In this document: positions 10,944 through 25,630 of the stretch, piece by piece
Layout: every line of letters starts with the position of its first letter
Position numbering within the stretch: the stretch's first letter is position 1
NCBI GenBank assembly: GCA_002350705.1
Contig: DEFH01000053.1
Coordinates: forward strand, 127,801-191,800
Reading direction: 5' to 3'
From: Ruminococcaceae bacterium UBA2857
GTDB lineage: Bacteria > Bacillota > Clostridia > Oscillospirales > Acutalibacteraceae
DNA length: 64,000 nt
Translations under genes and position numbers: made by a program
Notes under the pieces: generated by a model
Databases searched by the model: none
What the model was told of the DNA's origin: nothing
Seen by the model: only the letters and a program-made list of their open reading frames with translations

Positions 10944-11021
10944 AAAAATCAGCCTCTTTTACTAATTAAAATCGTGTTAGGAGTATTATAGCACAATTTG
11001 TCATAAATTGAAACAGCATTA

Positions 11022-12434
11022 TCAAAAATCTTCTTCATCATAATCGGGATACTGTTCGGGAGCTTTTCCGACAGATTTCCAGAGAACGGCCTCGGGACAT
11101 TCTTCCTCCGTTACGGAAAGAAGTTTGCATTGAAAACGCCACTCGTCACCAAAATCAAACAAATACAAAAACGGTTTTTTCTCTTTCAGTACTTCATAAA
11201 GGGTATGTTCCTGTGTCAGGGGATAGCGGTTGTCGATACCGTCACAATAATAGGCATTGTCACTCCATGCGTGATTGTCCGTGAAAAAGGCATAGGCATG
11301 GTCATTGTCAAAATCAAAAGCCTGTTGTATGGCGTTGTGCAGTTCTTCCAGTGTGGCATTGGCGGAAATTTTGATATGTCTGTAGCAGCCCTTGTCAACG
11401 GAAACGGATATTTTGTAAGTAAGCGGTTTGTCGGAATAGACCGTTTCGGAAGAGGCAGGCTCGGTGTCGGAAGAATCCATCAGATCGAAAAACTGTGAGA
11501 AAAAGGGCATGATTTCCTGAGCAAGTGACATAAGGGTATCTTGGGTAATACATTCGGGCATATTTTGTTGAAATGTCAGAGCGACGTTGATTTTGTCACA
11601 GAAATCCTTTATCAGCGTGTAAAATACGGGATGGCGGCAGATAATGGCAGAGGGTTTTCCGAATTGTCGGGAGAGATTCAGAATCAGGTCGGCACATTTG
11701 AAAGCAAGATTATCATCTTTTTCTATCTCAAGTGTCTGAAGCAGTTCTCCGTCTGCGATATCCACAGCATAAAATGCACAGGGAAAATGTGAACCGTTTT
11801 GAATGGGCACTTCAAACGGAGAGAGAAACGTATCCACAAATATTTGTCTTTTGGTGCTGTTCATTGCCTGAAGTTCTGCAAGGCTGTCGTTCTGTCGGAA
11901 TGTGATACCGATTTTGGAATGAAATTCAAAGAAATTCATTTCAGGCTCCAATAAAAGAATCGCACCGTTGGAAGTTTTGTTGATGGTCATGCCTTTCCGA
12001 TAAAGCTGTAAATCATAGCGTTCAAAAGCCTTTACCAGTGATTCCATGACATCAAGCAATAAGGCTGTTGTTTTTTTGTCTTCCACTTCCAGAATATAGC
12101 CGTTTCTGAATTCGTCAAATGAAAATATATCCTGATCGGGATCAATTTCGTTTCCCAATTCAATGTCCCATGAGCCTACAAAGGCGTTTTGCAGAAAGGA
12201 AATGGGAATGATACATCCTTCTTCTTTATCCGCCAGTATCTCCTGTGACAAGGCGTAATATTCTGCCGTGGTATACACGCCCAGTCCGTAAATACCGGAA
12301 CATTCCCTGAAAACACGGACAAATGTTTCCTGACTGTTTGTATTTTTGACGGAAATATAGCTTTCTTCATTGAAAGAATCCCAAAAGCCGTCTTTCAGAA
12401 GTTGTGCAGCAAGTTGATTGATTTTATTTTCCAT
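11022..12434 (-). CDS. protein with a C-terminal pRiA4_ORF3 (MM3350-like) domain and an unrecognised N-terminal region
   Basis: The C-terminal 'YKISVSVDKGCYRHIKISANATLEELHNAIQQAFDFDNDHAYAFF...LYLFDFGDEWRFQCKLL' fits the plasmid pRiA4b ORF-3 family pattern. Confidence 0.55.
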   Translation of the reverse strand: MENKINQLAAQLLKDGFWDSFNEESYISVKNTNSQETFVRVFRECSGIYGLGVYTTAEYYALSQEILADKEEGCIIPISFLQNAFVGSWDIELGNEIDPDQDIFSFDEFRNGYILEVEDKKTTALLLDVMESLVKAFERYDLQLYRKGMTINKTSNGAILLLEPEMNFFEFHSKIGITFRQNDSLAELQAMNSTKRQIFVDTFLSPFEVPIQNGSHFPCAFYAVDIADGELLQTLEIEKDDNLAFKCADLILNLSRQFGKPSAIICRHPVFYTLIKDFCDKINVALTFQQNMPECITQDTLMSLAQEIMPFFSQFFDLMDSSDTEPASSETVYSDKPLTYKISVSVDKGCYRHIKISANATLEELHNAIQQAFDFDNDHAYAFFTDNHAWSDNAYYCDGIDNRYPLTQEHTLYEVLKEKKPFLYLFDFGDEWRFQCKLLSVTEEECPEAVLWKSVGKAPEQYPDYDEEDF

Positions 12435-12560
12435 TTTTTGTGACAGACATCCTTTCGATTAAAAAATATTTCTCTTTCATATTAACATATATTTAGCATA
12501 ATAACAATATTTTTATCTTTCTAAAAATAAAAAATTATGGTATAATGTTGATACTGTAAA

Positions 12561-13838
12561 TTGACGAAAAAGGACAGTGATGCTATGGAAATGCATGAAA
12601 ATGCCGAAAAAATACAAAGAGCCCTGTTAGTGGGCATTGATACGGGAGAATATGATGCGGAAAACTCCATGAAGGAACTGTATGAGCTGGTGAAAAGTGC
12701 CGGAGCAGAACCGGTGGCATCTGTCATGCAGAAGCGTGACAAGCCTGACGGAGCAACTTGTATCGGTTCGGGACGCTTGGAAGAAATCAAAGAATTTTGC
12801 GGCCGGAATGAAATTGACTTTATCGTGTTTGACACGGAACTGACTCCCACGCAAATCAGGAATATTGAAAATGAAACGGATGTCAGAACCATTGACCGTA
12901 CCATGCTGATACTGGATATTTTTGCGATTCGTGCCAAGACAAACGAGGGTAAATTACAAGTAGAACTGGCACAGTTAAAGTATCTCATGCCGAGACTGTC
13001 GGGCAAAGGCAAGGAAATGTCCCGTCTGGGCGGCGGTGTCGGTACCAGAGGTCCGGGTGAGACCAAGCTCGAAACGGATAAAAGGCACATCCGCAGAAAA
13101 ATCGAATATCTTAAAGAAGAACTTGCAAGAATGACCAACAGGCGTGAACAGCTCCGTGCAAGACGTAAAAAAGATGGGATTATTACGGTTGCGATTGTGG
13201 GCTATACCAATGCGGGAAAGTCCACTTTGATGAATACACTCACACAGGCAGGCGTTTTGTCGGAAAACAAGCTGTTTGCAACACTGGACCCGACTTCAAG
13301 GGCATTGAAACTGCCGAATGGTGTGTCTGTCATGCTGATTGATACCGTCGGCCTTGTCCGCAGACTGCCGCACCATTTGGTAGAGGCTTTCAAGTCCACA
13401 CTCGAAGAAGCGGCTTTAGCGGATATCATATTGAATGTGTGTGATGCGTCAAGTGAGGAATTTGAACTGCATCTGGAGGTCACCGGCAAACTTTTATCGG
13501 AGTTGGGATGCAGTGACAGACCGATTCTCTCTGTTTTTAATAAATGTGATTTGGTGGGAAATCCCGATGATTTGCCGATGGGCAGGGAAAGTGTCCGTAT
13601 CTGTGCCAAAACAGGCGTGGGAATGGGGGAACTTCTGAGAGCCATTGAAAGGAATCTGCCTGTCCGTCTGAGAAAATTCACGCTTTTGGTGCCGTTTGAC
13701 AAAGCCTCTGTGATAGCTGTCCTGCGAAAAGCGGGTGCTTTGCAGTCGGAAGAGTATACAAGTGACGGCATAAAAGTGGAAGCCATTGTCGAAGAACCAC
13801 TCTGGCATATGGTCGAGCATTATCAGACCGATTTTTAA
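12561..13838 (+). CDS. hflX: GTPase HflX
   Basis: It has the HflX N-terminal domain plus 'VAIVGYTNAGKSTLMN', 'DTVGL' and 'NKCD' G motifs. The start is uncertain (TTG 12561 or ATG 12585). Confidence 0.9.
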   Translation: MTKKDSDAMEMHENAEKIQRALLVGIDTGEYDAENSMKELYELVKSAGAEPVASVMQKRDKPDGATCIGSGRLEEIKEFCGRNEIDFIVFDTELTPTQIRNIENETDVRTIDRTMLILDIFAIRAKTNEGKLQVELAQLKYLMPRLSGKGKEMSRLGGGVGTRGPGETKLETDKRHIRRKIEYLKEELARMTNRREQLRARRKKDGIITVAIVGYTNAGKSTLMNTLTQAGVLSENKLFATLDPTSRALKLPNGVSVMLIDTVGLVRRLPHHLVEAFKSTLEEAALADIILNVCDASSEEFELHLEVTGKLLSELGCSDRPILSVFNKCDLVGNPDDLPMGRESVRICAKTGVGMGELLRAIERNLPVRLRKFTLLVPFDKASVIAVLRKAGALQSEEYTSDGIKVEAIVEEPLWHMVEHYQTDF

Positions 13839-13953
13839 CCGAAAACTTACTTGACACAAATCAAAGATGGTATTATAATTTTATTCGTGTTTGATGGGGA
13901 AACATACAACAAAAAATTTGAAATTTTCTTTTTACATGAGGGGTTTTGTAGTG

Positions 13954-15897
13954 ATGAAAATTTTTAATTCAAGGGAAACAGAATATCGGAGTCCTGTGGG
14001 AGCGATTCCATTCGGAACAAGTATTCATTTCCGTATCGTTTTGCCGAGAAATCTGAAATGTACGGGAGCCTTTCTGGCTGTCAAAGACGACAAGTACGGT
14101 GATACGGATAACTATGGAATGTTCTGGGCAGGCATGGTGGGGGATGACCACGAACAATGGGAATGTGATGTGAAAGTCGATGCAGTAGGTTTGTACTGGT
14201 ATCATTTCGGACTGGACACCTGTCAGGGCAGACGTTACGTCATGAAGCAGGGCTTTGGTGAGGGGTATCTTGCCATGAGTGATTGTGAACCAAGATTTCA
14301 GCTTACCTGCTATGATGCCGATTTTAAAACACCCGACTGGCTGCCGGGCGGTATCATGTATCAGATTTTTCCTGACAGATTCTGTTTTTCCGGTGAGAAA
14401 AAAGAGGGAATCTATCCCGACAAGAAAATCCAGACAGACTGGAATGTGATTCCCGACTGGAGACCAAATGAGTTTGGTATGATTACCAATTCGGATTTCT
14501 TTCAGGGCGATCTCAAAGGCATTACCATGAAGCTGCCGTATCTGAAAAGTCTGGGTGTAAGCTGTATTTATCTGAATCCCATATTTGAGGCTTATTCCAA
14601 TCACCGTTACGATACGGGTGACTATGAAAAAATTGATCCTGTACTGGGGACAGAGGAAGATTTTAAAGAGCTTTGCGAAGAAGCCAAAAAACTGGACATC
14701 AGAATTATCAATGATGGTGTGTTCAGTCATACGGGCAGTGACAGTAAATACTTCAACCGTGAGAACCGTTATCCGGGTAACGGTGCGTATAATTCCAAGG
14801 AATCCCCGTATTATACATGGTACAAATTCATTGAATGGCCCAATATCTATAATTCATGGTGGGGCTTTCATACACTTCCCGAAGTGGAGGAACTTTCCAA
14901 CTCGTTCAATGAGTATATCAACGGTGAAAACGGTATTATCCGCAAGTGGATCAGATGCGGCAACAGTGGCTGGCGGCTGGATGTAGCGGACGAATTGCCC
15001 GATGAATTCATTGAATATATCCGTGAGGCTGTCAAGGCAGAGAATCCGGATGCTTTGCTTTTGGGAGAAGTCTGGGAAGATGCCTCCAATAAAGAAAGCT
15101 ATGGCTCAAGAAGACGTTTCCTGTACGGAAAAGAACTGGACAGCGTGATGAACTATCCGTTCAGAGATGCCATTTTAGGTTTTCTGGACTGCGGAGACGG
15201 CAAGAATATGCTGGAAATTGTCATGACGGTAGTGGAAAACTATCCGAGACCGGTTCTGCGTTCTTTGATGAATCTGCTTGGTACGCATGACACCGAAAGA
15301 GTGATTACACTTTTGGCAGGGGAAAAGCAGTACGGCAGAGGCAGAGAATGGCAGGCGGCAACAAGACTTTCTCCCGAACAGAGAGAATACGGTCTCAGAC
15401 GAATGAGGCTGGCAAGCGGTATTTTGTATACATTGCCGGGTGTACCGTGTATTTACTATGGTGATGAAGTCGGTGTGGAGGGTTACAAAGATCCGTTTAA
15501 CCGTGCGACATTCCCTTGGGGACGTGAGGACAAAGGCTTGCTCCAATGGTATCAGGAACTCGGAAAAATGCGTCATGCCTGTTCATGCCTGTATGACGGT
15601 GACATTAAGGACTTTGGCTCTACCGGCAGAACGATGGGTTATATCCGTTCCGATGAAAAGGATATGCTTTTGTGCGTGTTCAATGCGGCAGATTATACGA
15701 TTACGTTTCAAGTGCCGCAGGAGTTTGCAGGCGGTGAAACGTTCATGGGAACAAAGCTGGACGGTGACGAACTGACAATTCCCCGTGACAGTTGTGCTTT
15801 TGTGAGAGTCAAAACACCCGAAAAACCTGTTGTGATTGCAGTCGAATCCGAAGAACCCACAGCAGACGACAGCGAAAAAATTTCTGAAACAGAATAA
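13954..15897 (+). CDS. GH13 alpha-amylase family enzyme (neopullulanase/cyclomaltodextrinase-like), cytoplasmic
   Basis: 'GVSCIYLNPIF...NHRYDT', 'GWRLDVADE', 'LLGEVWED' and 'LLGTHDTER' correspond to GH13 conserved regions I-IV. There is no signal peptide. The start is GTG 13951 or ATG 13954, after GAGGGG. Confidence 0.85.
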   Translation: MKIFNSRETEYRSPVGAIPFGTSIHFRIVLPRNLKCTGAFLAVKDDKYGDTDNYGMFWAGMVGDDHEQWECDVKVDAVGLYWYHFGLDTCQGRRYVMKQGFGEGYLAMSDCEPRFQLTCYDADFKTPDWLPGGIMYQIFPDRFCFSGEKKEGIYPDKKIQTDWNVIPDWRPNEFGMITNSDFFQGDLKGITMKLPYLKSLGVSCIYLNPIFEAYSNHRYDTGDYEKIDPVLGTEEDFKELCEEAKKLDIRIINDGVFSHTGSDSKYFNRENRYPGNGAYNSKESPYYTWYKFIEWPNIYNSWWGFHTLPEVEELSNSFNEYINGENGIIRKWIRCGNSGWRLDVADELPDEFIEYIREAVKAENPDALLLGEVWEDASNKESYGSRRRFLYGKELDSVMNYPFRDAILGFLDCGDGKNMLEIVMTVVENYPRPVLRSLMNLLGTHDTERVITLLAGEKQYGRGREWQAATRLSPEQREYGLRRMRLASGILYTLPGVPCIYYGDEVGVEGYKDPFNRATFPWGREDKGLLQWYQELGKMRHACSCLYDGDIKDFGSTGRTMGYIRSDEKDMLLCVFNAADYTITFQVPQEFAGGETFMGTKLDGDELTIPRDSCAFVRVKTPEKPVVIAVESEEPTADDSEKISETE

Positions 15898-15900
15898 ATT

Positions 15901-15948
15901 TTAACAGCCTGTATGACGAAAATATCATACAGGCTGTTAAAATTTTTT
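15901..15948 (+). terminator. rho-independent terminator
   Basis: A 16-bp perfect stem (TTAACAGCCTGTATGA / TCATACAGGCTGTTAA) is followed by a T-run. Confidence 0.8.
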
Positions 15949-16020
15949 GAAAGTCCTTGTATAGCCAGGCGGAAAATCGGGTATGCTATGATTGTACCAA
16001 TTCACAGGAGGGAAACAAGT

Positions 16021-16194
16021 ATGACATCAAAAGAACTGATTTATGTAGAAGATGCTCTCGGTCACGAACAGTACTTCAAAACACAGTGTTCCGAAACAGC
16101 CAGCCGTATTCAGGACAATGAACTGCGTGCCTTTGCACAGGAGATTCAGAGACAGCACCAAATAATTTTTCAGAACTTTTACGACTTGCTTTGA
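16021..16194 (+). CDS. small spore-coat-associated protein (partner of the CotF-like protein)
   Basis: ATG at 16021 follows AGGAGGG. The 57-aa product is 'MTSKELIYVEDALGHEQYF...'. The longer track ORF overlaps the upstream terminator. Confidence 0.45.
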   Translation: MTSKELIYVEDALGHEQYFKTQCSETASRIQDNELRAFAQEIQRQHQIIFQNFYDLL

Positions 16195-16208
16195 GGAGGA
16201 GAACGGAC

Positions 16209-16451
16209 ATGGACGACAGAAACTTAATGGAGAATATGCTTTTGCTGGAAAAGGGTGTATGTGACCTGTTCATGCACGGCACGATTGAGTCATCGAGTGC
16301 AGATGTGCATCAGGCATTTTCCGATTCCCTGAATACCGCCCTAAACATTCAGGAACAGATCTACAGCAAGATGGAAGCAAGAGGCTGGTACAAGTCCGAA
16401 CAGGCTGACCAGGGCAAAATGGATTCCGTCAGAATGAAATACAGCAGCTGA
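16209..16451 (+). CDS. spore coat protein, CotF-like (Coat_F domain)
   Basis: 'DRNLMENMLLLEKGVCDLFMHGTIESSSADVHQAFSDSLNTAL' fits the Coat F pattern. GAGGAGGA lies upstream of ATG 16209. Confidence 0.6.
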   Translation: MDDRNLMENMLLLEKGVCDLFMHGTIESSSADVHQAFSDSLNTALNIQEQIYSKMEARGWYKSEQADQGKMDSVRMKYSS

Positions 16452-16458
16452 ATGAAAA

Positions 16459-16501
16459 CTGCTCCGCAGGCTTTACGGAAAGTCTGCGGAGCAGAATTTT
16501 T
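16459..16501. terminator. bidirectional terminator between convergent genes
   Basis: An 11-bp stem (CTGCTCCGCAG / CTGCGGAGCAG) is followed by a T-run. Confidence 0.7.
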
Positions 16502-17550
16502 TATGCGGCAAGTTTGCTCTGAGCAGTGATTTGGTCGGGAGAGGTGATTCGGGTGACGGTCATACCCTGTTTTTCCAGAAGACTGACAATGCCGTCATCT
16601 CCGAGATAATGAGCGGCACCGACTACCAGCATGACTGTCTGACCGCTTTTGCTGTATTCGGCAGCTTTTTCAGCCATGTTTTCATTACGGTTGATTAAAA
16701 GTCCGCTGTTGTATTCTTCAAGGAGCTTTTTTTCTTCTTCTGTTAATTGGGATTCGTCAAATTCCTCAGCATCTTCTGCTGTCATGGTGCCGGATTTCCA
16801 ACGGGCATACAGCTCTTTTAATTCTTCCGCCTGTTCTTCAATGGAGGCATCCTCTACATATGCGGCAAGCATCATTTCGATTAACTCATCGGAAAAGCCA
16901 TTGAACAGATTCATCTGAAAATCCATGGATTCGACTTCCATAATCTGTTTGCCGTCCTGTTTGGCACGGTTTGTCAGTACCATATCAACACCTTTTTCCG
17001 AGTTCAGCCCTGCCTGAGAAATGACAATATTTTCAATCAGCGATTCCCATACCAAAGGCTTGTAATAATCATAGAGAGAATTATAGACGTTATTGTCCCG
17101 AAGAAGCTTCACAAGTTTTTCATAGGTGTCCTCGGAGAGATGGTCTTTGATGGTAGTACCGTCCGTATACATCATATCGCCCATCATCTGTACAGCGGTT
17201 TCCATATCGTCCATCAGATTGGACATATCAATTTCAAAGGACAAAGCGTCACATTCGGCATAAGCTTTTTCAAAGTAGTCGGGAAGATGGTTCACGGCAT
17301 CATCTGCCGCATGAATCGAGCCGAACAGATACAGATAACTGCCATCCGGGTTTTCCGCCTTCCATAGAGCAGGCGTGATTTCTTCGCTGTCATGGCTGTT
17401 TCCGGATGTCTGCACAGATACCTGTGATTTCTCGGCGGAGGATTCCACTTTAAAGAGCTCATCTTTTTCAACGTGTTTACAGCCTGACAGAATCGGGACA
17501 ATCATTGTGACAGCGGCAAGGGCAGTGCATAAGATTTTTTTAAAATTCAT
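16501..17550 (-). CDS. TraB/GumN family lipoprotein
   Basis: The start 'MNFKKILCTALAAVTMIVPILSGC' carries a lipobox. 'YLYLFGSIHAADD' and 'VGAAHYLGDDG' are TraB/GumN motifs. Confidence 0.7.
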   Translation of the reverse strand: MNFKKILCTALAAVTMIVPILSGCKHVEKDELFKVESSAEKSQVSVQTSGNSHDSEEITPALWKAENPDGSYLYLFGSIHAADDAVNHLPDYFEKAYAECDALSFEIDMSNLMDDMETAVQMMGDMMYTDGTTIKDHLSEDTYEKLVKLLRDNNVYNSLYDYYKPLVWESLIENIVISQAGLNSEKGVDMVLTNRAKQDGKQIMEVESMDFQMNLFNGFSDELIEMMLAAYVEDASIEEQAEELKELYARWKSGTMTAEDAEEFDESQLTEEEKKLLEEYNSGLLINRNENMAEKAAEYSKSGQTVMLVVGAAHYLGDDGIVSLLEKQGMTVTRITSPDQITAQSKLAA

Positions 17551-17615
17551 GGTCAGCATCCTTTCATAAAATAGTTCTGTGATGATTATAACAATTATTC
17601 GGAAAGAGTGCAACT

Positions 17616-17648
17616 AAAAAATCGGACACTGTGTCAAACAGTGTCCGA
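17616..17648 (-). terminator. rho-independent terminator of the 17656-17865 gene
   Basis: An 11-bp perfect stem (TCGGACACTGT / ACAGTGTCCGA) is flanked by A-runs on both sides, which read as T-runs on either strand. Confidence 0.7.
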
Positions 17649-17655
17649 AAAAAGA

Positions 17656-17865
17656 TTATTTTTTATTTTTCTTGTTGCCGAGCAATGTCAGCAGCACAAT
17701 GACAAGGGCAGCCACACCGATACCGACAATGGCAAGAATCAGTATCATGGAGTTATCGCCTGTAGCAAAGTTTTTTTCGGCAGCAGCATTGGCACTCACG
17801 GAAAATGCGGAAAATGCAGTTACAATCATGGACAGAACAGAAATGATTTTTGTTTTGATACTCAT
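17656..17865 (-). CDS. 69-aa protein made of a signal peptide, about 10 residues, a TGD motif, a TM helix and a basic tail
   Basis: AAGGAGG lies 9 nt upstream of the ATG at 17865. The product is 'MSIKTKIISVLSMIVTAFSAFSVSANA/AAEKNFATGDNSMILILAIVGIGVAALVIVLLTLLGNKKNKK'. Confidence 0.5.
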   Translation of the reverse strand: MSIKTKIISVLSMIVTAFSAFSVSANAAAEKNFATGDNSMILILAIVGIGVAALVIVLLTLLGNKKNKK

Positions 17866-17956
17866 CAACATAAACCTCCTTGATATAACAACGGGAGCAT
17901 TGCCGAATGACAATGCTCCCGTATGTAAAAAGCGGTTCACACAGAACGCTTTTTAA

Positions 17957-18700
17957 TTATTTGGAATATTTCTTGGACTTGGAAGCAACCAGAGCTGTAC
18001 CGAGAGCAGCAGCACCGATGATAGCGAATACGGCTGCTGTTGCAGCAGAATCACCTGTGTTTACACCGGGAGCAGCGGACTGCTGAGAAGCCTGCTGAGA
18101 CTGCTGGGGAGCAACGGACTGCTGGGACTGCTGGGGAGCAACGGACTGCTGGGACTGCTGAGATTCCTGAGAAGGCTCTTCCGGTGTACCTGTCTTGGTA
18201 AGAACATAGTAAGAGAAGTGAGGAGCTTTGCAGGAAAGCTTGTTGCCGTCAGCATCAGCGAGTTTCACGAGACCGCTTGCTTCATCAAAGATATAAAGTG
18301 TCTCATAGGCAGTAGTAGTGGTTGTAACAGTCATGTCAACGCCTACACTGTTGAAAGATACGTTATTGCCGTCTTCATCGAGGAAGAAGATGTCGAGAAT
18401 TTCAGAAGTAGCGACATCCGGAAGAGCTGCGACAGCTGCTTCGATATCAACATTTGTGATAGTAGCGGCACCGAAAGTAAGAGCTTCACCGGCTGCGATA
18501 GCATCGGCAGGAACGTCTGCATCGATAGATACATCGTTGATGTCAACGTGGAAATGGGTAACTTTACCGAGTTCGACAACAACGGTATCTTTAGCTGTAG
18601 CATCGGTTACGCCGGGGGCAATCGCACTAACAGATACTGCAGAAGCAGAAACGGCAACGGCTGCTGCAAGAGCAGCTACCAAGCATTTTTTAGTGTTCAT
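17957..18700 (-). CDS. cell-surface protein with a Q/S-rich repeat linker and a C-terminal TGD/TM/basic sorting-like signal
   Basis: AGGAGG precedes the ATG at 18700. The signal peptide is 'MNTKKCLVAALAAAVAVSASAVSVSA' and the C-terminus is '...QQSAAPGVNTGDSAATAAVFAIIGAAALGTALVASKSKKYSK'. Confidence 0.6.
   Translation of the reverse strand: MNTKKCLVAALAAAVAVSASAVSVSAIAPGVTDATAKDTVVVELGKVTHFHVDINDVSIDADVPADAIAAGEALTFGAATITNVDIEAAVAALPDVATSEILDIFFLDEDGNNVSFNSVGVDMTVTTTTTAYETLYIFDEASGLVKLADADGNKLSCKAPHFSYYVLTKTGTPEEPSQESQQSQQSVAPQQSQQSVAPQQSQQASQQSAAPGVNTGDSAATAAVFAIIGAAALGTALVASKSKKYSK
18101..18154. repeat. perfect 27-nt tandem duplication inside the surface-protein gene
   Basis: CTGCTGGGGAGCAACGGACTGCTGGGA occurs twice back-to-back, with degenerate CTGCTG-type copies flanking. 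It encodes SQQSVAPQQ x2. Confidence 0.85.
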
Positions 18701-18873
18701 GATAAACATCCTCCTAAAATTAAATATAATGATTCTGAACAACCATATCATATCACAACCGTTACAAGTTTGTCAATAATTATATCGAAAAATGTACGTT
18801 TTTTTATTTGGTAAAGACAGGAAAAAAATAAATTTAGATATTTGTGATATGAAATCGAGAATGATTATTGTTT

Positions 18874-20037
18874 TTATAGAGACAGAAACTGACGAATTTC
18901 CTTGGAACCGTCGAAACGGAGCCATATATCATAGGGAACGGCACCGTGGGCGTTTTCAAACAGACCGTAATAGAAGTGGAAATAGGACAGTATCAGAATG
19001 ACGGTCAAAAAGCCGACAGCAAGGATTTTCTTTTGTTTGTCGGAGGTCAGTTCCATCGTTTTGCCGCCAAAGGATGCCTGAATTCCTTTGGCACAGAGGG
19101 AACGGTAAATGACAGGCACCAGCAGAATCAGAAAGATGACAAAGTAATAGGAAAGTCTTTCAATAATGCTGTGTTTGGACATGGTGACCATTAAAATCGT
19201 ACAAATCAGAGAAAGATTGATAAGATACTTGTTTTCGTTTGTGACGTTGAGGGTTCCCCATTTCACAAGGAGAAATGCCGCCGCTGTCACGGCAAGCGGA
19301 ACGATGGCATAAACGAAAGACAAACCTTCTTTGATGAAAACCGTGTTGCTGTATTCCTCATGGTAAAAGGTTGTCAGAATATTGATAAAGCCCTCGGATG
19401 CCATGTAGAACCACAGAATCAAATAACCGTATACAATCAGTTCTTTGAGTTTGGGCTGCATTTTAATCAGGAAGTAAACAGGCAGCATGACCAGAACGGT
19501 CTGATGGAAAAGAGATGCGAACAGAATGGTCACTGCAAAGGCAATGAATTTATTTTTTTTGATGAACAGCCATGCCAGCATGACAAAGGAAACCGCAATC
19601 ATCTGACGCAGGAAGTTGAATTCCATAAAGAAAATAAACAGATTGATATAAAGAATCGTAGAAATCCAGGGGGTTTCGGAATTTCTTGCAATGAAGACAG
19701 CCGCAGGAATAATGGCAAGGAAACTCAGAAAACCAATATACCAGATATAGCTTGGCAGTATCAGTCCCAGCACCTTTGTCAGCAGGACAAAGCCGATTTC
19801 CCAGTCTTTGTAAGTCAGGCTGCTGAAACCCTCGGCGGAGATCTGCTGAAATCCTACCGCATACATATTGTAGTCATAGCCGATCTGATTTCGCAGCACC
19901 ATGACCAGCAGCAGTTGTGTAAAGGCAATGCAGACAAAAACAATATTTTTGGTTTTGGAGGGCTTTTTAAAACAGAACAGCCACGCCCACAGCCATAAAA
20001 GCAAATGATTCAAAGTATAAAACAGCAACAAAAACAA
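18874..20037 (-). CDS. EpsG-like polytopic membrane protein (putative Wzy-type polysaccharide polymerase)
   Basis: A 387-aa protein with about 10 or more TM helices and an EpsG-like N-terminal pattern ('GYDYNMYAVGF'). The start codon is uncertain, as only TTG codons lie next to AGGAG. Confidence 0.55.
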   Translation of the reverse strand: MFLLLFYTLNHLLLWLWAWLFCFKKPSKTKNIVFVCIAFTQLLLVMVLRNQIGYDYNMYAVGFQQISAEGFSSLTYKDWEIGFVLLTKVLGLILPSYIWYIGFLSFLAIIPAAVFIARNSETPWISTILYINLFIFFMEFNFLRQMIAVSFVMLAWLFIKKNKFIAFAVTILFASLFHQTVLVMLPVYFLIKMQPKLKELIVYGYLILWFYMASEGFINILTTFYHEEYSNTVFIKEGLSFVYAIVPLAVTAAAFLLVKWGTLNVTNENKYLINLSLICTILMVTMSKHSIIERLSYYFVIFLILLVPVIYRSLCAKGIQASFGGKTMELTSDKQKKILAVGFLTVILILSYFHFYYGLFENAHGAVPYDIWLRFDGSKEIRQFLSL

Positions 20038-20054
20038 CTCCTGTCAAAACAAAT

Positions 20055-21482
20055 CTAACGGGCATTTTTGGAAAAAATGCCTTTGGTGAGAGTCTTCAGC
20101 AAAATTTTGATGTCAAAGCCGACAGACCAGTTTTCAATGTAATATAAATCATATCGGATACGTTCTTCAATAGAGGTATCACCTCCACGCAGGTCGTTGA
20201 CCTGTGCCCAGCCGGTAATGCCGGGTTTGACATAATGTTTGACCATATAGGAAGGAATGGATTTCCGGAAATGCTCCACATAGTACGGAATTTCCGGACG
20301 GGGACCGACAAGACTCATATCGCCTTTCAGGACATTGAAAAGCTGCGGCAGTTCGTCGATACTGAATTTTCGGATAAAGGCTCCGAAACGGGTACAGCGT
20401 TCATCATTTTTTTCTGTCATGGAAAGATCTCCCTCTGTTTCGACTCTCATGGAACGGAATTTGTACATGGTAAAGGGACGGTTGGACATTCCCACACGTT
20501 CCTGCTTGAAGATGACACTTCCGGGAGAGGTAATTTTGATAATCACTGCGGTGATCAGCATGAGAGGCGACAGAAAAATCAACATCAAAAAGGAAATAAC
20601 AATGTCCAGTATCCGTTTGATGAATTTGTTGAATGTATTTTCAAGCGGCACGTTCCGTATGCTCAGCAGAGGAAGTCCGTCAAAGCTCGAAATATAGATT
20701 CTGGAAGAAAAACTTGCAAACATATTGGGCAGGATGGAAAATTTAATCCCCCAGTTTTCACATATCGCCATCAGATGGTCTAATGAAGGCTGGAGCTTGT
20801 CGGAAAGCATAATCACAGCTTCATCAGGCGGAGCTGTTTTAAAGAAAGAAGAAATCTTTTTGAAATTGCCCAGATAGGGAATTTTCAGTTGTGAGTGAGG
20901 AGCAGCGGCAAAATATCCCGAAAGTTCAAAGCCCAAATCAGGCGAAGTCTGTACTTTGTCGACGAAATTTTCCGTACAGTTATTGACACCGATAATGGCA
21001 ATATATTTTTTATTGTAGCCCCGGCTTCTCATGTACTTGAGGATACTTCTCAGCACGGCACGGTAAAACAGTGAAATGAACGTATTGATAAAATAATAAA
21101 TAATAATGATGATCTGAAATTGAAAAAGCCTTGCCGTAACAATCGCAATGAAGATTTGTGCAATGCAAAGCACGATCCCCGATTTGAGCACATTGGAAGC
21201 CTCTTCCAAAAAGCTGGTGGAACGATAGGAACGATACAGATCATACGCTCTGTTAAACAATATCTGACATACTGCTACCGCAGCGAGTACGGAAACAATG
21301 ATTCCAATGTCATAGCCGTATTCATACAGCAGATCATTTCCGAAAATATACTTATAAGCAAAATACGAGGCAGTACAGCTTGAAAAACTGATAAAAATAT
21401 CCATTGTCACATGGACAGCGTTGAGTTTTCCTTGATTTTGCTTGATCAATTCACTTTCACCTGCCTTTTCATGCGTACACAT
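20055..21482 (-). CDS. undecaprenyl-phosphate hexose-1-phosphate transferase (bacterial sugar transferase, WcaJ/EpsL-like priming enzyme)
   Basis: The C-terminal 'KRILDIVISFLMLIFLSPLMLI...KQERVG...FTMYKFRSM...FIRKFSIDELPQLFNVLKGDMSLVGPRPE' is the polyprenyl glycosylphosphotransferase signature. Confidence 0.85.
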   Translation of the reverse strand: MCTHEKAGESELIKQNQGKLNAVHVTMDIFISFSSCTASYFAYKYIFGNDLLYEYGYDIGIIVSVLAAVAVCQILFNRAYDLYRSYRSTSFLEEASNVLKSGIVLCIAQIFIAIVTARLFQFQIIIIIYYFINTFISLFYRAVLRSILKYMRSRGYNKKYIAIIGVNNCTENFVDKVQTSPDLGFELSGYFAAAPHSQLKIPYLGNFKKISSFFKTAPPDEAVIMLSDKLQPSLDHLMAICENWGIKFSILPNMFASFSSRIYISSFDGLPLLSIRNVPLENTFNKFIKRILDIVISFLMLIFLSPLMLITAVIIKITSPGSVIFKQERVGMSNRPFTMYKFRSMRVETEGDLSMTEKNDERCTRFGAFIRKFSIDELPQLFNVLKGDMSLVGPRPEIPYYVEHFRKSIPSYMVKHYVKPGITGWAQVNDLRGGDTSIEERIRYDLYYIENWSVGFDIKILLKTLTKGIFSKNAR

Positions 21483-21637
21483 TCTTATTTTAATATATCA
21501 AATTATGATAGTCAACCCTTTTTCACGACAGAGAACAGGCAATTTTTTTGTCATAAATTATGTTAAAAAATATGATAGACAAGATTGCTTGATAATGTTA
21601 TAATGAATTTGTATTATAAACTACGGGAGTTGGAAAG

Positions 21638-22417
21638 ATGTTCACAAAAGGTATCAATGAATTTATGTATTATGTTCCTTTCCTGAAAGAGATTATCAAA
21701 AGGGACTTTAAAAAGAAATATTATAAATCCGTTCTGGGTGTCGCATGGTCCATGCTTAGTCCTCTGCTGATGATGGTGGTCATTACGATTATTTTTTCAA
21801 CGCTTTTTAAGAGAGAGATTCCCTATTATCCGTCTTATTGGCTGGGAGGAAACCTGTTGTTTGCGTTTGCTATGGACGGCACCAACAGTGCGATGAACAG
21901 TATGGTCAACAATGCCTCCATGATTAAAAAAATGAAGATTCCGAATTATTTTTTCTGTATTTCCGGTGTTACACAGCATTTTATTACGGTCATTTTTTCA
22001 CTTGTACCATATTTTGTCGTGTCAATGCTGATTGGTGTACCGCTGAGCTGGAAAATGCTGTTGATTTTCTTTCCGATTATACTGGTATATATCTTCACGC
22101 TGGGACTGGGAATGTTCCTTTGTGCCTACGGTACATTTCTGAGAGACCTCAATTATCTGTATCACATTGTAAGAAGAGTCTGGCTGTATGTGACACCGAT
22201 TTTTTATCCGATTGACATTATCCCGGAACAGTTCCGCTTTTTGTTTGAGCTGAATCCTATTTATGTGTATATTTCCATTTTCCGTGATTTTGCACTCAAT
22301 GATACCATGCCTTCGGAGAGAATGATTATTGTTGCTACTTTTTACAGTATCCTGACGCTGATTCTGGGCATTACGACATTCAGGGAAAAGGAAGACCGTT
22401 TCTTCCTGTATATATGA
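21638..22417 (+). CDS. ABC-2 type polysaccharide/teichoic-acid export permease (TagG/Wzm-like)
   Basis: A 259-aa, 6-TM protein with an N-terminal 'FKKKYYKSVLGVAWSMLSPLLMM' motif typical of TagG/Wzm. It is followed by the cognate ATPase. Confidence 0.8.
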   Translation: MFTKGINEFMYYVPFLKEIIKRDFKKKYYKSVLGVAWSMLSPLLMMVVITIIFSTLFKREIPYYPSYWLGGNLLFAFAMDGTNSAMNSMVNNASMIKKMKIPNYFFCISGVTQHFITVIFSLVPYFVVSMLIGVPLSWKMLLIFFPIILVYIFTLGLGMFLCAYGTFLRDLNYLYHIVRRVWLYVTPIFYPIDIIPEQFRFLFELNPIYVYISIFRDFALNDTMPSERMIIVATFYSILTLILGITTFREKEDRFFLYI

Positions 22418-22426
22418 GGTGAAAAA

Positions 22427-23251
22427 ATGATGATAGATATTTCAAGGGAAGCGGTAGAAATTGTCAATCCTGTGATTAACAGGAGTCTGAGAACGGATGA
22501 TTTGGATGATGAGGAAATTTGTATTGATGTACGCAACGTGTCCGTACTGTTCAATCTCAGCAAAAACCGTGAAGACGGTCTGAAAGAATATTTTATTAAC
22601 AGAATTAAGGGCAAAGTGGGCTATGATGAATTCTGGGCACTGCGAAATATCAGCCTTCAGGTGCATAAAGGAGATGCCCTGGCTTTTATCGGACGCAACG
22701 GCTCAGGCAAATCCACTCTGCTGAAAACCATTGCAGGCATTATCAAGCCCACACGAGGCAGCATTACAGTCAACGGCACAATTGCACCGTTGATTGAAAT
22801 CAGCGGCGGTTTTGACCGTTCTCTTTCGGCAAGGGAAAATATCTTTCTTGTGGGAGCCATGCACGGACACACCAAAAAATATATGAAAAAGCGTTTTGAT
22901 GAAATTGTGGAATTTGCCGAAATACAGCGTTTTGTAGATGTGCCGATGAAAAACTATTCTTCGGGTATGGTGGCAAGACTGGGATTCGCACTGGCAACCT
23001 GTGTCAATGCAGATATTATCATTGCAGATGAAGTCCTGTCTGTCGGTGATGCCAAATTCCGCATGAAGTGTGAGGAACGTATTCAGCAAATGCTGAAAGC
23101 AGGAACCACGATTTTATATGTATCGCACAGTGCCGCACAGGTGAAAAAAATCTGCCGTACAGCGGTATGGCTTGACAAGGGACAAATTATTGATACGGGT
23201 ACGGCTGCGGAAATCAGTGATAAATATATGCAGTCTCTGAAAAAGGAATGA
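22427..23251 (+). CDS. ABC transporter ATP-binding protein (TagH/Wzt-like)
   Basis: Walker A 'GRNGSGKSTLL', signature 'YSSGMVARL', Walker B 'IIIADEVLSVGD'. Confidence 0.85.
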   Translation: MMIDISREAVEIVNPVINRSLRTDDLDDEEICIDVRNVSVLFNLSKNREDGLKEYFINRIKGKVGYDEFWALRNISLQVHKGDALAFIGRNGSGKSTLLKTIAGIIKPTRGSITVNGTIAPLIEISGGFDRSLSARENIFLVGAMHGHTKKYMKKRFDEIVEFAEIQRFVDVPMKNYSSGMVARLGFALATCVNADIIIADEVLSVGDAKFRMKCEERIQQMLKAGTTILYVSHSAAQVKKICRTAVWLDKGQIIDTGTAAEISDKYMQSLKKE

Positions 23252-23257
23252 TATAGT

Positions 23258-24364
23258 TTGAAAAAAATCCTGATTTGTGCATCGAGAGTGTCGCATATCC
23301 TGAATTTTCACCTGCCCTACATACAGTATTTTAAGAATAGGGGATATATCGTGGATATTGCCGTGCAGGGTATGACCGATCACCCGTTGATTGACCACTG
23401 CTATGATATGCGGTTTACCAAAAATCCTCTGTCGCCTGACAATCTCAGAACCATCCGTCAGCTCAGACAACTGATTGTTGTCAACGGATATGATATGATG
23501 TATTCCAATTCCACGCTTGCGGGAGCAGCAGCAAGGCTGGCTGTCAAGGGAATGAAACAGAGACCGTATTGTATACATATCTCACATGGGTATATGTTCA
23601 AAGAGCATGGCGGTTTAAAATCCCGTGTCTATTTGTATGCGGAAAAGCTGACAAAAAATGTTACGGATGATTTAATTGTGATGAATCGGGAAGATTGGAC
23701 ACTTGCCCGGAAATATCAGCTGGGAAAGAAGATACATTATATATATGGCATGGGATTGGATGAAGAAAAATTTCCTGTCATCTCACAGAAAGAAAAAAAA
23801 CGTATCCGACACTCTATGAATATTTCCGACAGTGACAAAATGCTCCTGTGTGTGGGAGAATTTTCCGACAGAAAAAATCAGACTGCCATTATTACAGCTT
23901 TGAATGATTTGGTGAAAATACATAAAAATATTATGCTGGTGCTGGCAGGAGAGGGAAACACGCTGGAAAGCTGCCGACAGCTTGTACATGAATATGAATT
24001 GGACAGATATGTTCGTTTTCGGGGACAGGTGCAGGACACAGCACCGCTTTACAGGTGCAGTGATTTGCTTGTTACAGCCGCAAAAATGGAAGGCTTGCCG
24101 TTCAATGTCATGGAAGCATTGTACTGTGGGGTGCCTGTTGTGGCAAGCTCCGTCAAAGGTCATGCCGACCTGATACGCAATGGCGAAAACGGCTTGCTGA
24201 CAGATCATCTTTTGCAGTCGCTTGACAGAATTCTGTCAGACAGTGCCTTGTATGAAAAACTGAAAGCCAATGCCTTTCTTGACGAAAAATATCTGCTGAA
24301 AAACGCTCAGCCTGCACTTTTGAAAATACTTGACAGGGAATACAGGGAGGAGATCACCGTATGA
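23258..24364 (+). CDS. glycosyltransferase family 4 (GT-B, group 1)
   Basis: It has a TTG start. The C-terminal 'MEGLPFNVMEALYCGVPVVAS...GENGLL' contains the E-x7-E type GT4 motif. Confidence 0.8.
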   Translation: MKKILICASRVSHILNFHLPYIQYFKNRGYIVDIAVQGMTDHPLIDHCYDMRFTKNPLSPDNLRTIRQLRQLIVVNGYDMMYSNSTLAGAAARLAVKGMKQRPYCIHISHGYMFKEHGGLKSRVYLYAEKLTKNVTDDLIVMNREDWTLARKYQLGKKIHYIYGMGLDEEKFPVISQKEKKRIRHSMNISDSDKMLLCVGEFSDRKNQTAIITALNDLVKIHKNIMLVLAGEGNTLESCRQLVHEYELDRYVRFRGQVQDTAPLYRCSDLLVTAAKMEGLPFNVMEALYCGVPVVASSVKGHADLIRNGENGLLTDHLLQSLDRILSDSALYEKLKANAFLDEKYLLKNAQPALLKILDREYREEITV

Positions 24365-25629: not shown

Positions 25630-25630
25630 C

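What the first reader, a model, noticed from the sequence alone, without database searches (positions are those of the whole stretch)
17656..17865. A 69-aa gene that is essentially only a signal peptide plus a C-terminal sorting-type signal
With the RBS-supported start, the product is 'MSIKTKIISVLSMIVTAFSAFSVSANA|AAEKNFATGDNS|MILILAIVGIGVAALVIVLLTLL|GNKKNKK'. That is a cleavable signal peptide, about 10 residues, a TGD motif, a TM helix and a Lys-rich tail. It has the tripartite architecture of sortase or exosortase-type sorting signals but almost no passenger domain. It has its own Shine-Dalgarno sequence and a clean terminator, so it looks like a real gene. Such a cargo-less substrate could be a decoy or regulator of the sorting enzyme, a short anchored peptide, or a remnant. 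The neighbouring gene carries the same C-terminal signal.
Basis: partly seen in the sequence, partly recalled or inferred. Interest (0 to 1): 0.62.

Follow-up and report, generated by a model that had tools for sequence, protein, structure and literature searches.

The report
Passenger-less sortase-signal mini-protein
A real, conserved 69-codon gene of a rumen Ruminococcus-like bacterium encodes only an export signal, about eight residues and a cell-wall sorting-type tail, and it belongs to a wider, apparently unstudied family of such cargo-less peptides in gut and rumen Firmicutes.

Summary
Window 17656-17865 (minus strand) encodes the stated 69-aa protein, with AGGAGG 9 nt before the ATG and a strong terminator after it.

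It is a real gene. Ten related rumen species keep it full length at dN/dS 0.10-0.31. A metatranscriptome contig covers it, though weakly. It is the second cistron behind the 264-aa TGD-anchored protein, reached through a conserved leaky hairpin.

TGD followed by a membrane helix and a basic tail is a genuine C-terminal signal in this genome: 13 cases against 0.27 expected. Three of those proteins sit beside sortase genes. No exosortase is present, and TIGR04145 does not match.

The mini-protein scores below the curated LPXTG cut-off (8.9-11.8 against 15.9 bits). Its profile nevertheless retrieves only small proteins of the same build elsewhere, carrying NPxTGDNS. These pass the cut-off and NCBI labels them LPXTG anchor proteins.

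In sister species a second cargo-less family has replaced the 264-aa protein itself.

Best reading (about 0.55): a passenger-less substrate of the genus-wide class-B-like sortase, in which the sorting signal itself is the functional part. Cleavage is untested. The main rival is an uncleaved small membrane protein. The remnant reading is rejected.

The parts
17656..17865 (-). mini1 gene, 69 aa plus stop: signal peptide, 7 residues, TGDNS, membrane helix, GNKKNKK
   Evidence: Full-length orthologues in 10 species. dN/dS 0.10-0.31. RNA contig 17709-17952 in run X10.
17785..17865 (-). signal peptide, aa 1-27 (MSIKTK / hydrophobic core / SANA|A)
   Evidence: Read directly from the sequence. The (A/V)-x-A box is kept in 8 of 9 orthologues. 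No SignalP run was possible.
17764..17784 (-). the whole 'passenger', aa 28-34 (AAEKNFA); variable between species
   Evidence: Alignment A1 has no invariant column here.
17749..17763 (-). TGDNS motif, aa 35-39; invariant. With the preceding residues it reads N-F-A-T-G, collinear with NPxTG.
   Evidence: Invariant in 9 of 9 sequences. Aligned with NP(S/V/P)TGDNS of the wider family.
17659..17748 (-). membrane helix (aa 40-62) and Lys-rich tail (aa 63-69)
   Evidence: All remaining invariant columns lie here: L42, A45, I49, A52-V55, V57, L59, G63, K65, K66.
17875..17880 (-). Shine-Dalgarno AGGAGG, 9 nt before the ATG
   Evidence: AGGAG is kept in all orthologues.
17891..17922 (-). conserved hairpin between the 264-aa gene and mini1; terminator-like with a weak T tract, probably leaky
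   Evidence: 14 pairs. Kept in 10 species with core CATTGTC...GGCAATG; 6 pairs show compensatory change. RNA depth drops from 39-85 to 3 across it.
17622..17648 (-). intrinsic terminator that ends the two-gene unit
   Evidence: 11-bp stem, 6 G-C pairs, then TTTTTT.
17957..18751 (-). upstream TGD-anchored surface protein (likely start at 18700-18709): signal peptide, beta-sandwich domain, Q/S-rich linker, NTGDS anchor
   Evidence: AlphaFold pLDDT is about 90 for residues 30-172, with no convincing PDB match. Well transcribed in three rumen metatranscriptomes.
18747..18776 (-). promoter-like site (TTGACA, 18 nt, TG-TATGAT) for the two-gene unit
   Evidence: 11 of 12 matches. This is a consensus match only.
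16501..17553 (-). downstream TraB/PrgY/GumN-family lipoprotein; conserved neighbour, here with promoter-like hexamers of its own
   Evidence: PF01963, E 3.8e-63. Present in 35 of 36 genus genomes searched. Lipobox LSGC. TTGCAC-17-TATAAT seen by eye in the 102-nt spacer; not listed by the promoter scan.

Best explanation
mini1 is a genuine small gene. It is transcribed at a low level by read-through of the leaky hairpin behind the 264-aa TGD-anchored protein gene.

Proposed pathway:
1. The 69-aa precursor inserts into the membrane as a helical hairpin.
2. Signal peptidase I cuts after SANA. This leaves a 42-residue peptide with 12 residues outside (AAEKNFATGDNS), one membrane helix and a Lys-rich cytoplasmic tail.
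3. The outside stretch carries the same juxtamembrane TGD signal as about a dozen large surface proteins of this genome.
4. The most likely next step is cleavage between T35 and G36 by the genus-wide class-B-like sortase (the 845-aa protein on contig C39).
5. That cleavage would put an 8-residue stub (AAEKNFAT) on lipid II or peptidoglycan and leave a 34-residue C-peptide in the membrane.

Selection acts on the sorting signal (TGDNS, helix, tail) and not on the passenger. The functional part is therefore the signal itself. It could act as a membrane C-peptide that engages the sortase or another membrane partner, or as a device that caps wall amino groups with a minimal peptide.

Shown: the gene, its conservation, its operon position, the genome-wide TGD signal, and the wider family.
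Inferred: signal-peptidase cleavage, sortase cleavage, the identity of the enzyme, and the role.
For: Reality of the gene:
- Full-length orthologues occur in 10 species at 55-90% identity.
- dN/dS is 0.10-0.31, like the neighbouring TraB enzyme (0.06-0.18) and lower than the 264-aa neighbour (0.20-0.46).
- An RNA contig with no mismatches covers 17709-17952.

The signal:
- TGD at the junction with a membrane helix and basic tail occurs 13 times against 0.27 expected.
- TGD proteins lie directly beside sortase genes on C66, C48 and C61.
- Several TGD tails reach the LPXTG_anchor cut-off (22.2 and 16.4 bits) or come close (15.6 and 15.5).
- No exosortase is present.

The enzyme:
- The C39 class-B-like sortase is in 40 of 41 genus genomes.
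- The class-D-like sortase is in 28 of 41 and is missing from genomes that keep TGD proteins at this locus.

The wider family:
- The mini1 profile, searched against 1.8 billion representatives, returned 10 hits. Eight are 43-81-aa proteins of the same build, and six of those lie outside the mini1 group with P-x-TGD(N/H)S motifs, four of them NPxTGD.
- hhalign gives probability 98.8% and E 1e-16 over 63 columns.
- These relatives score 16.3-26.3 bits on LPXTG_anchor, and NCBI and JGI name them LPXTG anchor proteins.

Selection on the signal:
- All 17 invariant columns lie in TGDNS, the helix and the tail.
- The G029 variant has lost the signal peptide in frame but keeps the rest.
- In five sister species searched (about 20 sequence clusters in the public protein collection) the 264-aa protein itself is reduced to signal peptide, 17-40 residues and anchor. 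This form is 70-92% identical between species whose TraB is only 41-62% identical.

Precedent for a functional C-peptide after sortase cleavage: PMC11502775, citing the S. gordonii work.
Against: - The window's own copy scores only 8.9 bits (full protein) and 11.8 bits (tail alone) on LPXTG_anchor, cut-off 15.9.
- It scores 10.1 bits on a profile built from this genome's 14 cargo-bearing TGD tails. Leave-one-out scores of true tails are 3.8-45.9 and TGD-less controls reach 10.2, so that test has little power.
- Position -2 is Phe, Tyr or Val rather than Pro.
- C. difficile SrtB does not cut NVQTG in vitro (PMC4155245). SPSTG and SPQTG proteins are not processed in vivo (PMC5569036). Motif plus helix plus tail therefore does not prove cleavage.
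- No sortase gene lies on the 204-kb contig that holds the window.
- RNA support is one assembled contig at depth 3 in one run, and DNA carry-over cannot be excluded.
- Anchors of the large TGD proteins are also unusually conserved, so a conserved anchor is not specific evidence for a C-peptide role.
Confidence: 0.55

Rival explanations
1. A small single-pass membrane protein that is never cut by a sortase. After signal-peptide removal the 42-residue peptide stays in the membrane. There it acts through its conserved helix and tail on a partner, in the manner of small membrane regulators. TGDNS would be a juxtamembrane contact motif.
For: - All invariant residues lie in TGDNS, the helix and the tail.
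- The leaderless 43-aa G029 variant would give nearly the same mature peptide.
- LPXTG_anchor scores are below threshold.
- Clostridial precedent exists for motif-bearing proteins that sortase does not process (PMC4155245, PMC5569036).
- Small membrane proteins that modulate sortase exist, for example SafA (PMC9282373).
Against: - TGD at this exact position is a 48-fold enriched signal shared with large secreted proteins, three of which lie next to sortase genes.
- The wider family carries the class-B-type NPxTG motif and passes the curated anchor model.
Confidence: 0.3
2. A precursor of a short exported peptide signal. Signal peptidase and sortase (acting by hydrolysis), or another protease, would release a 7-9-residue peptide or a hydrophobic fragment. 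The adjacent TraB/PrgY-like lipoprotein would degrade or control it, as PrgY is thought to control cCF10.
For: - A PF01963 lipoprotein lies directly downstream of mini1 and mini2 through much of the genus.
- In G029 the two genes are 5 nt apart.
- PrgY is described as a Tiki-like peptidase acting on a signal-peptide-derived pheromone (PMC7117660).
- The passenger varies between species, as pherotypes do.
Against: - No receptor, regulator or peptide permease was identified nearby.
- TraB is in 35 of 36 genus genomes searched, but mini1 is in only about 10.
- In G000 TraB has a terminator in front of it and promoter-like hexamers of its own.
- The distant relatives have no TraB neighbour.
Confidence: 0.06
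3. A decaying remnant of a duplicated surface-protein gene with no function of its own.
For: - It has no passenger.
- Loss of cargo has happened at this locus (mini2).
- It is present in only one subclade.
Against: - dN/dS is 0.10-0.31 with dS 0.4 to above 2.
- The frame is intact in 10 species, with no frameshifts.
- RBS and terminators are kept.
- mini2 is more conserved than the adjacent enzyme.
Confidence: 0.03
4. A major coat protein of a filamentous (inovirus-like) prophage, which has the same build: leader, short N-terminus, helix, basic tail.
For: The architecture is the same as M13 procoat or, for the leaderless variant, Pf3 coat (my own knowledge).
Against: - No PHROG match.
- Stable chromosomal synteny between a surface-protein gene and TraB in 10 species.
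- No phage genes nearby.
Confidence: 0.01

Closest known systems
LPXTG-type cell-wall sorting signals and their sortase substrates (TIGR01167 / PF00746)
   Same: N-terminal signal peptide. C-terminal T-G motif followed by an acidic residue, a hydrophobic helix and a basic tail. Sortases are present in the genome. Relatives of the mini-protein pass the curated model.
   Different: There is no passenger: 7 residues between the two signals. L and P of the pentapeptide are absent (NFATG). The window's copy is below the model's cut-off.
Class B sortase signals: NPxTG / NPQTN (Bacillus, Staphylococcus) and (S/P)PxTG of C. difficile SrtB (PMC4155245, PMC11987632)
   Same: The genome's core sortase is class-B-like. 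The wider mini family carries NP(S/V/P)TGD. mini1's N-F-A-T-G is collinear with N-P-x-T-G.
   Different: Pro at -2 is replaced by Phe, Tyr or Val in mini1 and by Val in most large TGD proteins here. C. difficile SrtB did not cut NVQTG in vitro.
C-peptide signalling after sortase cleavage in Streptococcus gordonii (as cited in PMC11502775)
   Same: The membrane remnant of a sorting signal is the active molecule. A passenger-less substrate would be a cheap source of such a peptide.
   Different: No histidine kinase or other partner is identified here. In S. gordonii the C-peptide comes from full-size adhesins.
EF2685/EF0750 family sortase-dependent surface proteins (NF053819, about 105 aa)
   Same: Very small sortase substrates. 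Weak collinear matches of the tails.
   Different: These still have a passenger of about 40-50 residues. All scores here are far below its cut-off of 47 bits.
SafA, small membrane protein that protects actinobacterial housekeeping sortase (PMC9282373)
   Same: A small membrane protein functionally tied to the sortase pathway.
   Different: SafA is not a substrate mimic, has an FPW motif, and is encoded next to srtA in Actinobacteria.
M13 procoat / Pf3 coat (membrane insertion model proteins; my own knowledge)
   Same: Same size and topology, so the likely insertion route is a helical hairpin followed by leader peptidase. The leaderless variant resembles Pf3 coat.
   Different: No phage context, and no PHROG match.

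Membership tests
LPXTG-type sortase substrate (TIGR01167 LPXTG_anchor) | N-terminal Sec signal peptide | tested here: met
   Judged by inspection only: K-rich n-region, 15-residue h-region, A-x-A box, kept in 8 of 9 orthologues. No SignalP was available.
LPXTG-type sortase substrate (TIGR01167 LPXTG_anchor) | LPXTG-like pentapeptide 17-45 residues from the C-terminus | tested here: inconclusive
   T-G-D is present and invariant, 35 residues from the end. L and P are absent (N-F-A-T-G).
LPXTG-type sortase substrate (TIGR01167 LPXTG_anchor) | hydrophobic segment plus positively charged tail after the motif | tested here: met
   23 hydrophobic residues, then GNKKNKK.
LPXTG-type sortase substrate (TIGR01167 LPXTG_anchor) | score at or above the curated cut-off (15.9 bits) | tested here: not met
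   8.9 bits (full protein) and 11.8 bits (tail alone). Orthologues score 8.7-15.2. The distant NPxTGDNS relatives score 16.3-26.3 and do pass.
LPXTG-type sortase substrate (TIGR01167 LPXTG_anchor) | a sortase encoded in the genome | tested here: met
   Five sortase-domain genes: one class C, one class-D-like, three class-B-like. None is on the window's contig.
LPXTG-type sortase substrate (TIGR01167 LPXTG_anchor) | cleavage between T and G and amide linkage to peptidoglycan | not testable with these tools
   Needs biochemistry or muropeptide mass spectrometry.
Firmicu-CTERM (TIGR04145) | match to the family model | tested here: not met
   The model has 191 positions. No match in the whole genome at E up to 10, and it is not listed for the protein.
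Rumino_NPXTG anchor (NF033846) | score at or above 23.5 bits | tested here: not met
   Not listed for the window's protein. Orthologues score 11.7-12.7. The best in the genome is 21.6.
Sortase B QVPTGV-class signal (TIGR03065) | match to the family model | tested here: not met
   No match in the genome at E up to 10.
Exosortase / PEP-CTERM-type sorting | an exosortase or archaeosortase (PF09721) in the genome | tested here: not met
   No match at E up to 1. The genome is 87% complete.
Class B sortase substrate (NPxTG or (S/P)PxTG) | Pro at position -2 relative to the cleaved Thr | tested here: not met
   Phe in the window; Phe, Tyr or Val in orthologues. Pro is present in the distant relatives and in 4 of the genome's large TGD proteins.
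Enterococcal pheromone or inhibitor precursor with PrgY/TraB control | adjacent TraB/PrgY-family protein | tested here: met
   PF01963, E 3.8e-63, directly downstream.
Enterococcal pheromone or inhibitor precursor with PrgY/TraB control | cognate peptide receptor or regulator and peptide uptake genes | not tested
   No targeted search was run. The ORFs of window 10000-26000 listed gave no obvious candidate.
Inovirus major coat protein | phage context or a match to a phage protein family | tested here: not met
   No PHROG match. Chromosomal synteny is conserved.

The most novel reading that the evidence does not exclude
Gut and rumen Oscillospirales may use a sortase as the maturation enzyme for ribosomally made oligopeptides, not only to display folded proteins.

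Signal peptidase and sortase together would excise a 7-10-residue peptide (AAEKNFAT here, GVPNPST in Angelakisella-type relatives). The peptide would then either be grafted in bulk onto peptidoglycan amino groups, as a genetically encoded wall cap, or be released by hydrolysis as a signal. The adjacent TraB/PrgY-like lipoprotein would trim or degrade it.

The repeated, selected loss of the passenger at this locus (mini2) would then be a switch from protein display to peptide decoration.
Probability: 0.1. Interest if true: 0.85.

Novelty: new variant of a known kind. Interest (0 to 1): 0.55.

Why it matters
Sortases are understood as enzymes that display folded proteins or build pili. A conserved, selected family of substrates with no passenger does not fit that picture. 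This genus alone has two independent lineages of it, and there are at least 31 sequence clusters elsewhere, some very common in gut metagenomes.

The family implies that the sorting signal itself, or a 7-10-residue wall-linked stub, has a function. Either would be a new use of the sortase pathway in abundant gut and rumen Firmicutes.

It also matters for annotation. Pipelines either miss these genes or call them 'LPXTG cell wall anchor domain-containing protein', as if a cargo existed.

The case is directly testable with peptide cleavage assays and muropeptide mass spectrometry.

Tried and rejected
Family and model searches:
- TIGR03065 QVPTGV class: no hit.
- NF033846 Rumino_NPXTG: only sub-threshold hits to large proteins.
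- Exosortase PF09721: absent.
- Rfam on 17500-18900 for a riboswitch or attenuator around the conserved hairpin: nothing.
- PHROGs, for an inovirus coat reading: nothing.

Neighbour structure:
- Fold search of the neighbour's beta-sandwich domain against the PDB gave no convincing match. The best was E 4e-3 with TM 0.32.

Genome-specific anchor profile:
- The leave-one-out test turned out too weak to decide.

RNA evidence:
- Two larger metatranscriptomes of the same study held nothing from this locus.
- Two runs of unknown type gave only short pieces.

Glycan linkage:
- mini1 and mini2 lie beside a glycan locus, and one distant relative lies beside a priming transferase and a GT4.
- Four other distant relatives lie beside unrelated genes.
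- I therefore did not adopt a peptide-primed polysaccharide reading.

Literature:
- Searches for passenger-less LPXTG proteins found no description. The library is incomplete.

Full report
**1. What is there**

- Residues 1-27 form a textbook Sec signal peptide: MSIKTK, 15 hydrophobic residues, then SANA|A.
- Residues 28-34 (AAEKNFA) are the only 'passenger'.
- Residues 35-39 are TGDNS.
- Residues 40-62 are hydrophobic.
- Residues 63-69 are GNKKNKK.

AGGAGG sits 9 nt before the ATG (17875-17880). A strong intrinsic terminator follows the stop (17648-17622). The upstream gene on the same strand (17957-18700/18751) ends in NTGDS, a helix and KSKKYSK.

The window is C6:127801-191800 of a 2.12-Mb, 43% G+C, 87%-complete MAG. 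Its relatives are 'uncultured Ruminococcus sp.' rumen MAGs, and bovine gut metagenomes hold the sequence.

**2. It is a real gene**

Full-length orthologues with intact frames, RBS and terminators occur in ten species of one subclade of the genus. Identity is 55-90%.

Nei-Gojobori dN/dS is 0.10-0.31, with dS from 0.4 to above 2. That is about the same as the neighbouring TraB-family enzyme (0.06-0.18) and lower than the 264-aa neighbour (0.20-0.46). This rejects the 'remnant' reading.

All 17 invariant columns lie in TGDNS, the helix and the tail. None lies in the signal peptide or the 7-residue spacer. One species (G029) has an in-frame loss of the signal peptide, giving the 43-aa MMSSLAVATGDNS.... 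Its mature product would be almost the same as the processed form in the other species.

**3. Expression and operon structure**

There is no room for a promoter in front of mini1. Its RBS starts 10 nt (its ATG 25 nt) after a 14-bp hairpin (17922-17891) with a weak T tract.

The hairpin is conserved in all ten species. It has a sequence-conserved core (CATTGTC...GGCAATG), and six pairs show compensatory changes. Rfam has nothing there.

A near-consensus promoter lies before the 264-aa gene (18776-18747).

In three rumen metatranscriptomes the 264-aa gene is well covered, at contig depths 5-85. In one of them a 244-nt contig with no mismatches runs from 17952 through the hairpin to 17709 at depth 3. 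I infer a two-gene unit in which mini1 is made by read-through at a few per cent of the upstream level.

This rests on assembled contigs of one run, so it is weak evidence. Other runs added nothing.

**4. Is TGD plus helix plus tail a sorting signal?**

Among 77 six-frame ORFs of the genome that end in a hydrophobic run and a basic tail, 13 carry TGD at the junction, against 0.27 expected. With close variants (TSD, TGE) there are about 15 such proteins of 230-2170 aa.

The genome has five sortase-domain genes: one class C, one class-D-like and three class-B-like. It has no exosortase.

Three TGD proteins lie directly next to sortase genes:
- VLTGD lies after a class-B-like gene on C66.
- VDTGD lies before one on C48.
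- VWTGD lies after the class C sortase of an LPATG pilin operon on C61.

Four TGD tails reach or nearly reach the curated LPXTG_anchor cut-off: 22.2, 16.4, 15.6 and 15.5 bits against 15.9. The consensus is x-(V/P)-x-T-G-D.

The 845-aa class-B-like protein (C39) occurs in 40 of 41 genomes of the genus at 55-88% identity. The class-D-like sortase occurs in 28 of 41 and is missing from genomes that keep TGD proteins at this locus. C39 is therefore the best candidate enzyme, but this is an inference.

**5. Does mini1 carry that signal?**

At motif level it does: TGD is invariant and in the right place.

By profile the answer is only weak.
- LPXTG_anchor gives 8.9 bits for the protein and 11.8 for the tail.
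- A profile of this genome's 14 cargo-bearing tails gives 10.1 bits for the window's copy and 16.0 and 21.3 for two orthologues.
- On that same profile, leave-one-out scores of true tails range 3.8-45.9, and TGD-less controls reach 10.2.

**6. The wider family**

A profile of mini1 searched against 1.8 billion representative proteins returned ten hits. Eight are 43-81-aa proteins with the same build. Six of these come from outside the mini1 group and carry P-x-TGD(N/H)S, which reads NP(S/V/P)TGD in four of them. The other two hits were a 946-aa repeat protein and a 298-aa anchored protein.

Profile-profile comparison gives 98.8% probability and E 1e-16 over 63 columns. Helix-rich composition inflates such scores.

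A search seeded with these hits found at least 31 clusters of 54-83 aa. One, of 61 aa, was seen on 568 contigs, and NCBI names it 'LPXTG cell wall anchor domain-containing protein [Angelakisella sp.]'. These relatives score 16.3-26.3 bits on LPXTG_anchor.

NPxTG is a class-B sortase motif (PMC11987632). mini1's N-F-A-T-G is collinear with it, with Pro replaced.

In the four loci inspected these genes stand alone behind consensus TTGACA-17-TATAAT promoters. Their contexts vary:
- opposite a BlaI/BlaR1-like pair in two cases;
- before a methyltransferase, a priming transferase and a GT4 in one case;
- next to TauE, MgsA or glyoxalase genes in others.

**7. A second cargo-less family at the same locus**

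In five sister species the place of the 264-aa protein, upstream of TraB, is taken by a 74-97-aa protein. Its signal peptide (MKLKKTFFVALTT...) and anchor (...GVAALGTAVVATKMKKASK) are nearly those of the 250-aa proteins of a third clade. Only 17-40 low-complexity residues and x-(V/P/I)-x-TGDNS lie between them.

About 20 clusters of this family exist. It is 70-92% identical between species whose TraB is only 41-62% identical.

So loss of the passenger has been fixed and then maintained by selection, independently of mini1.

**8. How it most likely works**

The proposed pathway runs in four steps:
1. The precursor inserts as a helical hairpin.
2. Signal peptidase cuts after SANA.
3. The class-B-like sortase cuts the exposed TGD signal between T35 and G36.
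4. An 8-residue stub goes to the wall precursor, and a 34-residue C-peptide stays in the membrane.

Because selection acts on the signal and not on the passenger, the signal is the functional part. I see two versions and cannot separate them. In one, the membrane C-peptide or uncleaved tail acts on a partner; the S. gordonii C-peptide circuit cited in PMC11502775 and the sortase-protecting SafA (PMC9282373) are precedents. In the other, bulk grafting of a minimal peptide onto wall amino groups is the point.

I give the sortase-substrate reading 0.55.

The main caution comes from C. difficile. SrtB cuts (S/P)PxTG but not NVQTG in vitro (PMC4155245), and SPSTG and SPQTG proteins are not processed in vivo (PMC5569036). 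A small membrane protein that is never cleaved therefore remains a serious rival, at 0.30.

**9. The TraB/PrgY neighbour**

A PF01963 lipoprotein follows mini1, mini2 or the large TGD protein in much of the genus. In G029 it starts 5 nt after mini1.

PrgY is thought to degrade a signal-peptide-derived pheromone (PMC7117660). That invites a reading of mini1 as a peptide-signal precursor paired with its control peptidase.

Several points argue against it:
- TraB is nearly universal in the genus, while mini1 is not.
- In G000 a terminator precedes TraB and promoter-like hexamers lie in the spacer.
- The distant relatives lack a TraB neighbour.
- No receptor was found.

I keep this reading at about 0.06.

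**10. Novelty**

Sortase signals are well known, and annotation pipelines already label some of these mini-proteins. I found no paper describing passenger-less sortase substrates, in a library that is incomplete.

Earlier notes of this scan report analogous mini-substrates in Saccharibacteria and other CPR bacteria. Those are unchecked leads, not support.

I class this as a new variant of a known kind, of moderate interest. The anatomy and conservation are solid. The biochemistry and function are open and directly testable.

Noticed in passing
window 17891-17922 (minus strand): The hairpin between the 264-aa gene and mini1 is conserved in sequence (CATTGTC...GGCAATG) as well as in structure. 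It is always preceded by TTTACATA, in ten species whose flanking proteins are only about 60% identical. It may be more than a terminator, for example a protein-binding or RNA-processing site.
   Followed up: partly
L057 6912-7160, L058 2995-3231, L059 2455-2703, L060 6333-6572, L061 1364-1600: 'mini2': in five sister species the orthologue of the 264-aa TGD protein is reduced to signal peptide, 17-40 residues and anchor (74-97 aa, about 20 clusters). It is far more conserved than the adjacent TraB enzyme, signal peptide included.
   Followed up: yes
G000 contig C39, about 96000-98600 (L004): The genus-wide core sortase is an unusual 845-aa protein. An N-terminal region of about 210 residues precedes the membrane helix. 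Then come a class-B-like catalytic domain and about 370 residues of Glu/Ala/Lys-rich, coiled-coil-like C-terminal extension. It is present in 40 of 41 genus genomes. Pfam sees only the sortase domain.
   Followed up: partly
L081-L085 around 5001-5186; L074 3582-3827: The 61-81-aa NPSTGDNS relatives (Angelakisella type) sit divergently from a BlaI-like repressor and a BlaR1-like M56+M23 membrane protease. They have consensus sigma-70 promoters, which hints at control by envelope stress.
   Followed up: no
One metatranscriptome contig has a 9-nt insertion behind 18164, so linker length varies between strains.
   Followed up: partly
window 17960-18610 (minus strand): The passenger of the 264-aa protein (residues 30-172) is predicted with pLDDT about 90 as a beta-sandwich. 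It has no convincing relative in the PDB (best E 4e-3, TM 0.32) or in Pfam.
   Followed up: partly
L048 3980-4111 (G029): This mini1 orthologue has lost its signal peptide in frame (43 aa) and ends 5 nt before the TraB gene, with no terminator between the two. The mature peptide would still be placed N-out by the positive-inside rule.
   Followed up: partly
window 16501-17553 (minus strand): A TraB/PrgY/GumN (Tiki-like) lipoprotein has GSIH and GAAH motifs and a lipobox. It is conserved downstream of a TGD-anchored or mini protein in much of the genus. Its substrate is unknown. The arrangement recalls the PPEP-1 protease gene next to its sortase-anchored substrate in C. difficile.
   Followed up: partly
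window 18874-26329 and L057-L061: mini1, mini2 and the 264-aa gene border the same surface-glycan locus: priming transferase, EpsG-like protein, TagG/TagH, GT4, Big_2 membrane protein and cytidylyltransferase. One distant relative (L071) precedes a methyltransferase, a priming transferase and a GT4. Other relatives do not, so a glycan link is unproven.
   Followed up: partly
G000 contigs C47 (1-6516) and C53: The same PTTGD anchor and preceding sequence end two contigs. This is probably one large (over 2000 aa) surface protein gene split or duplicated by assembly.
   Followed up: no
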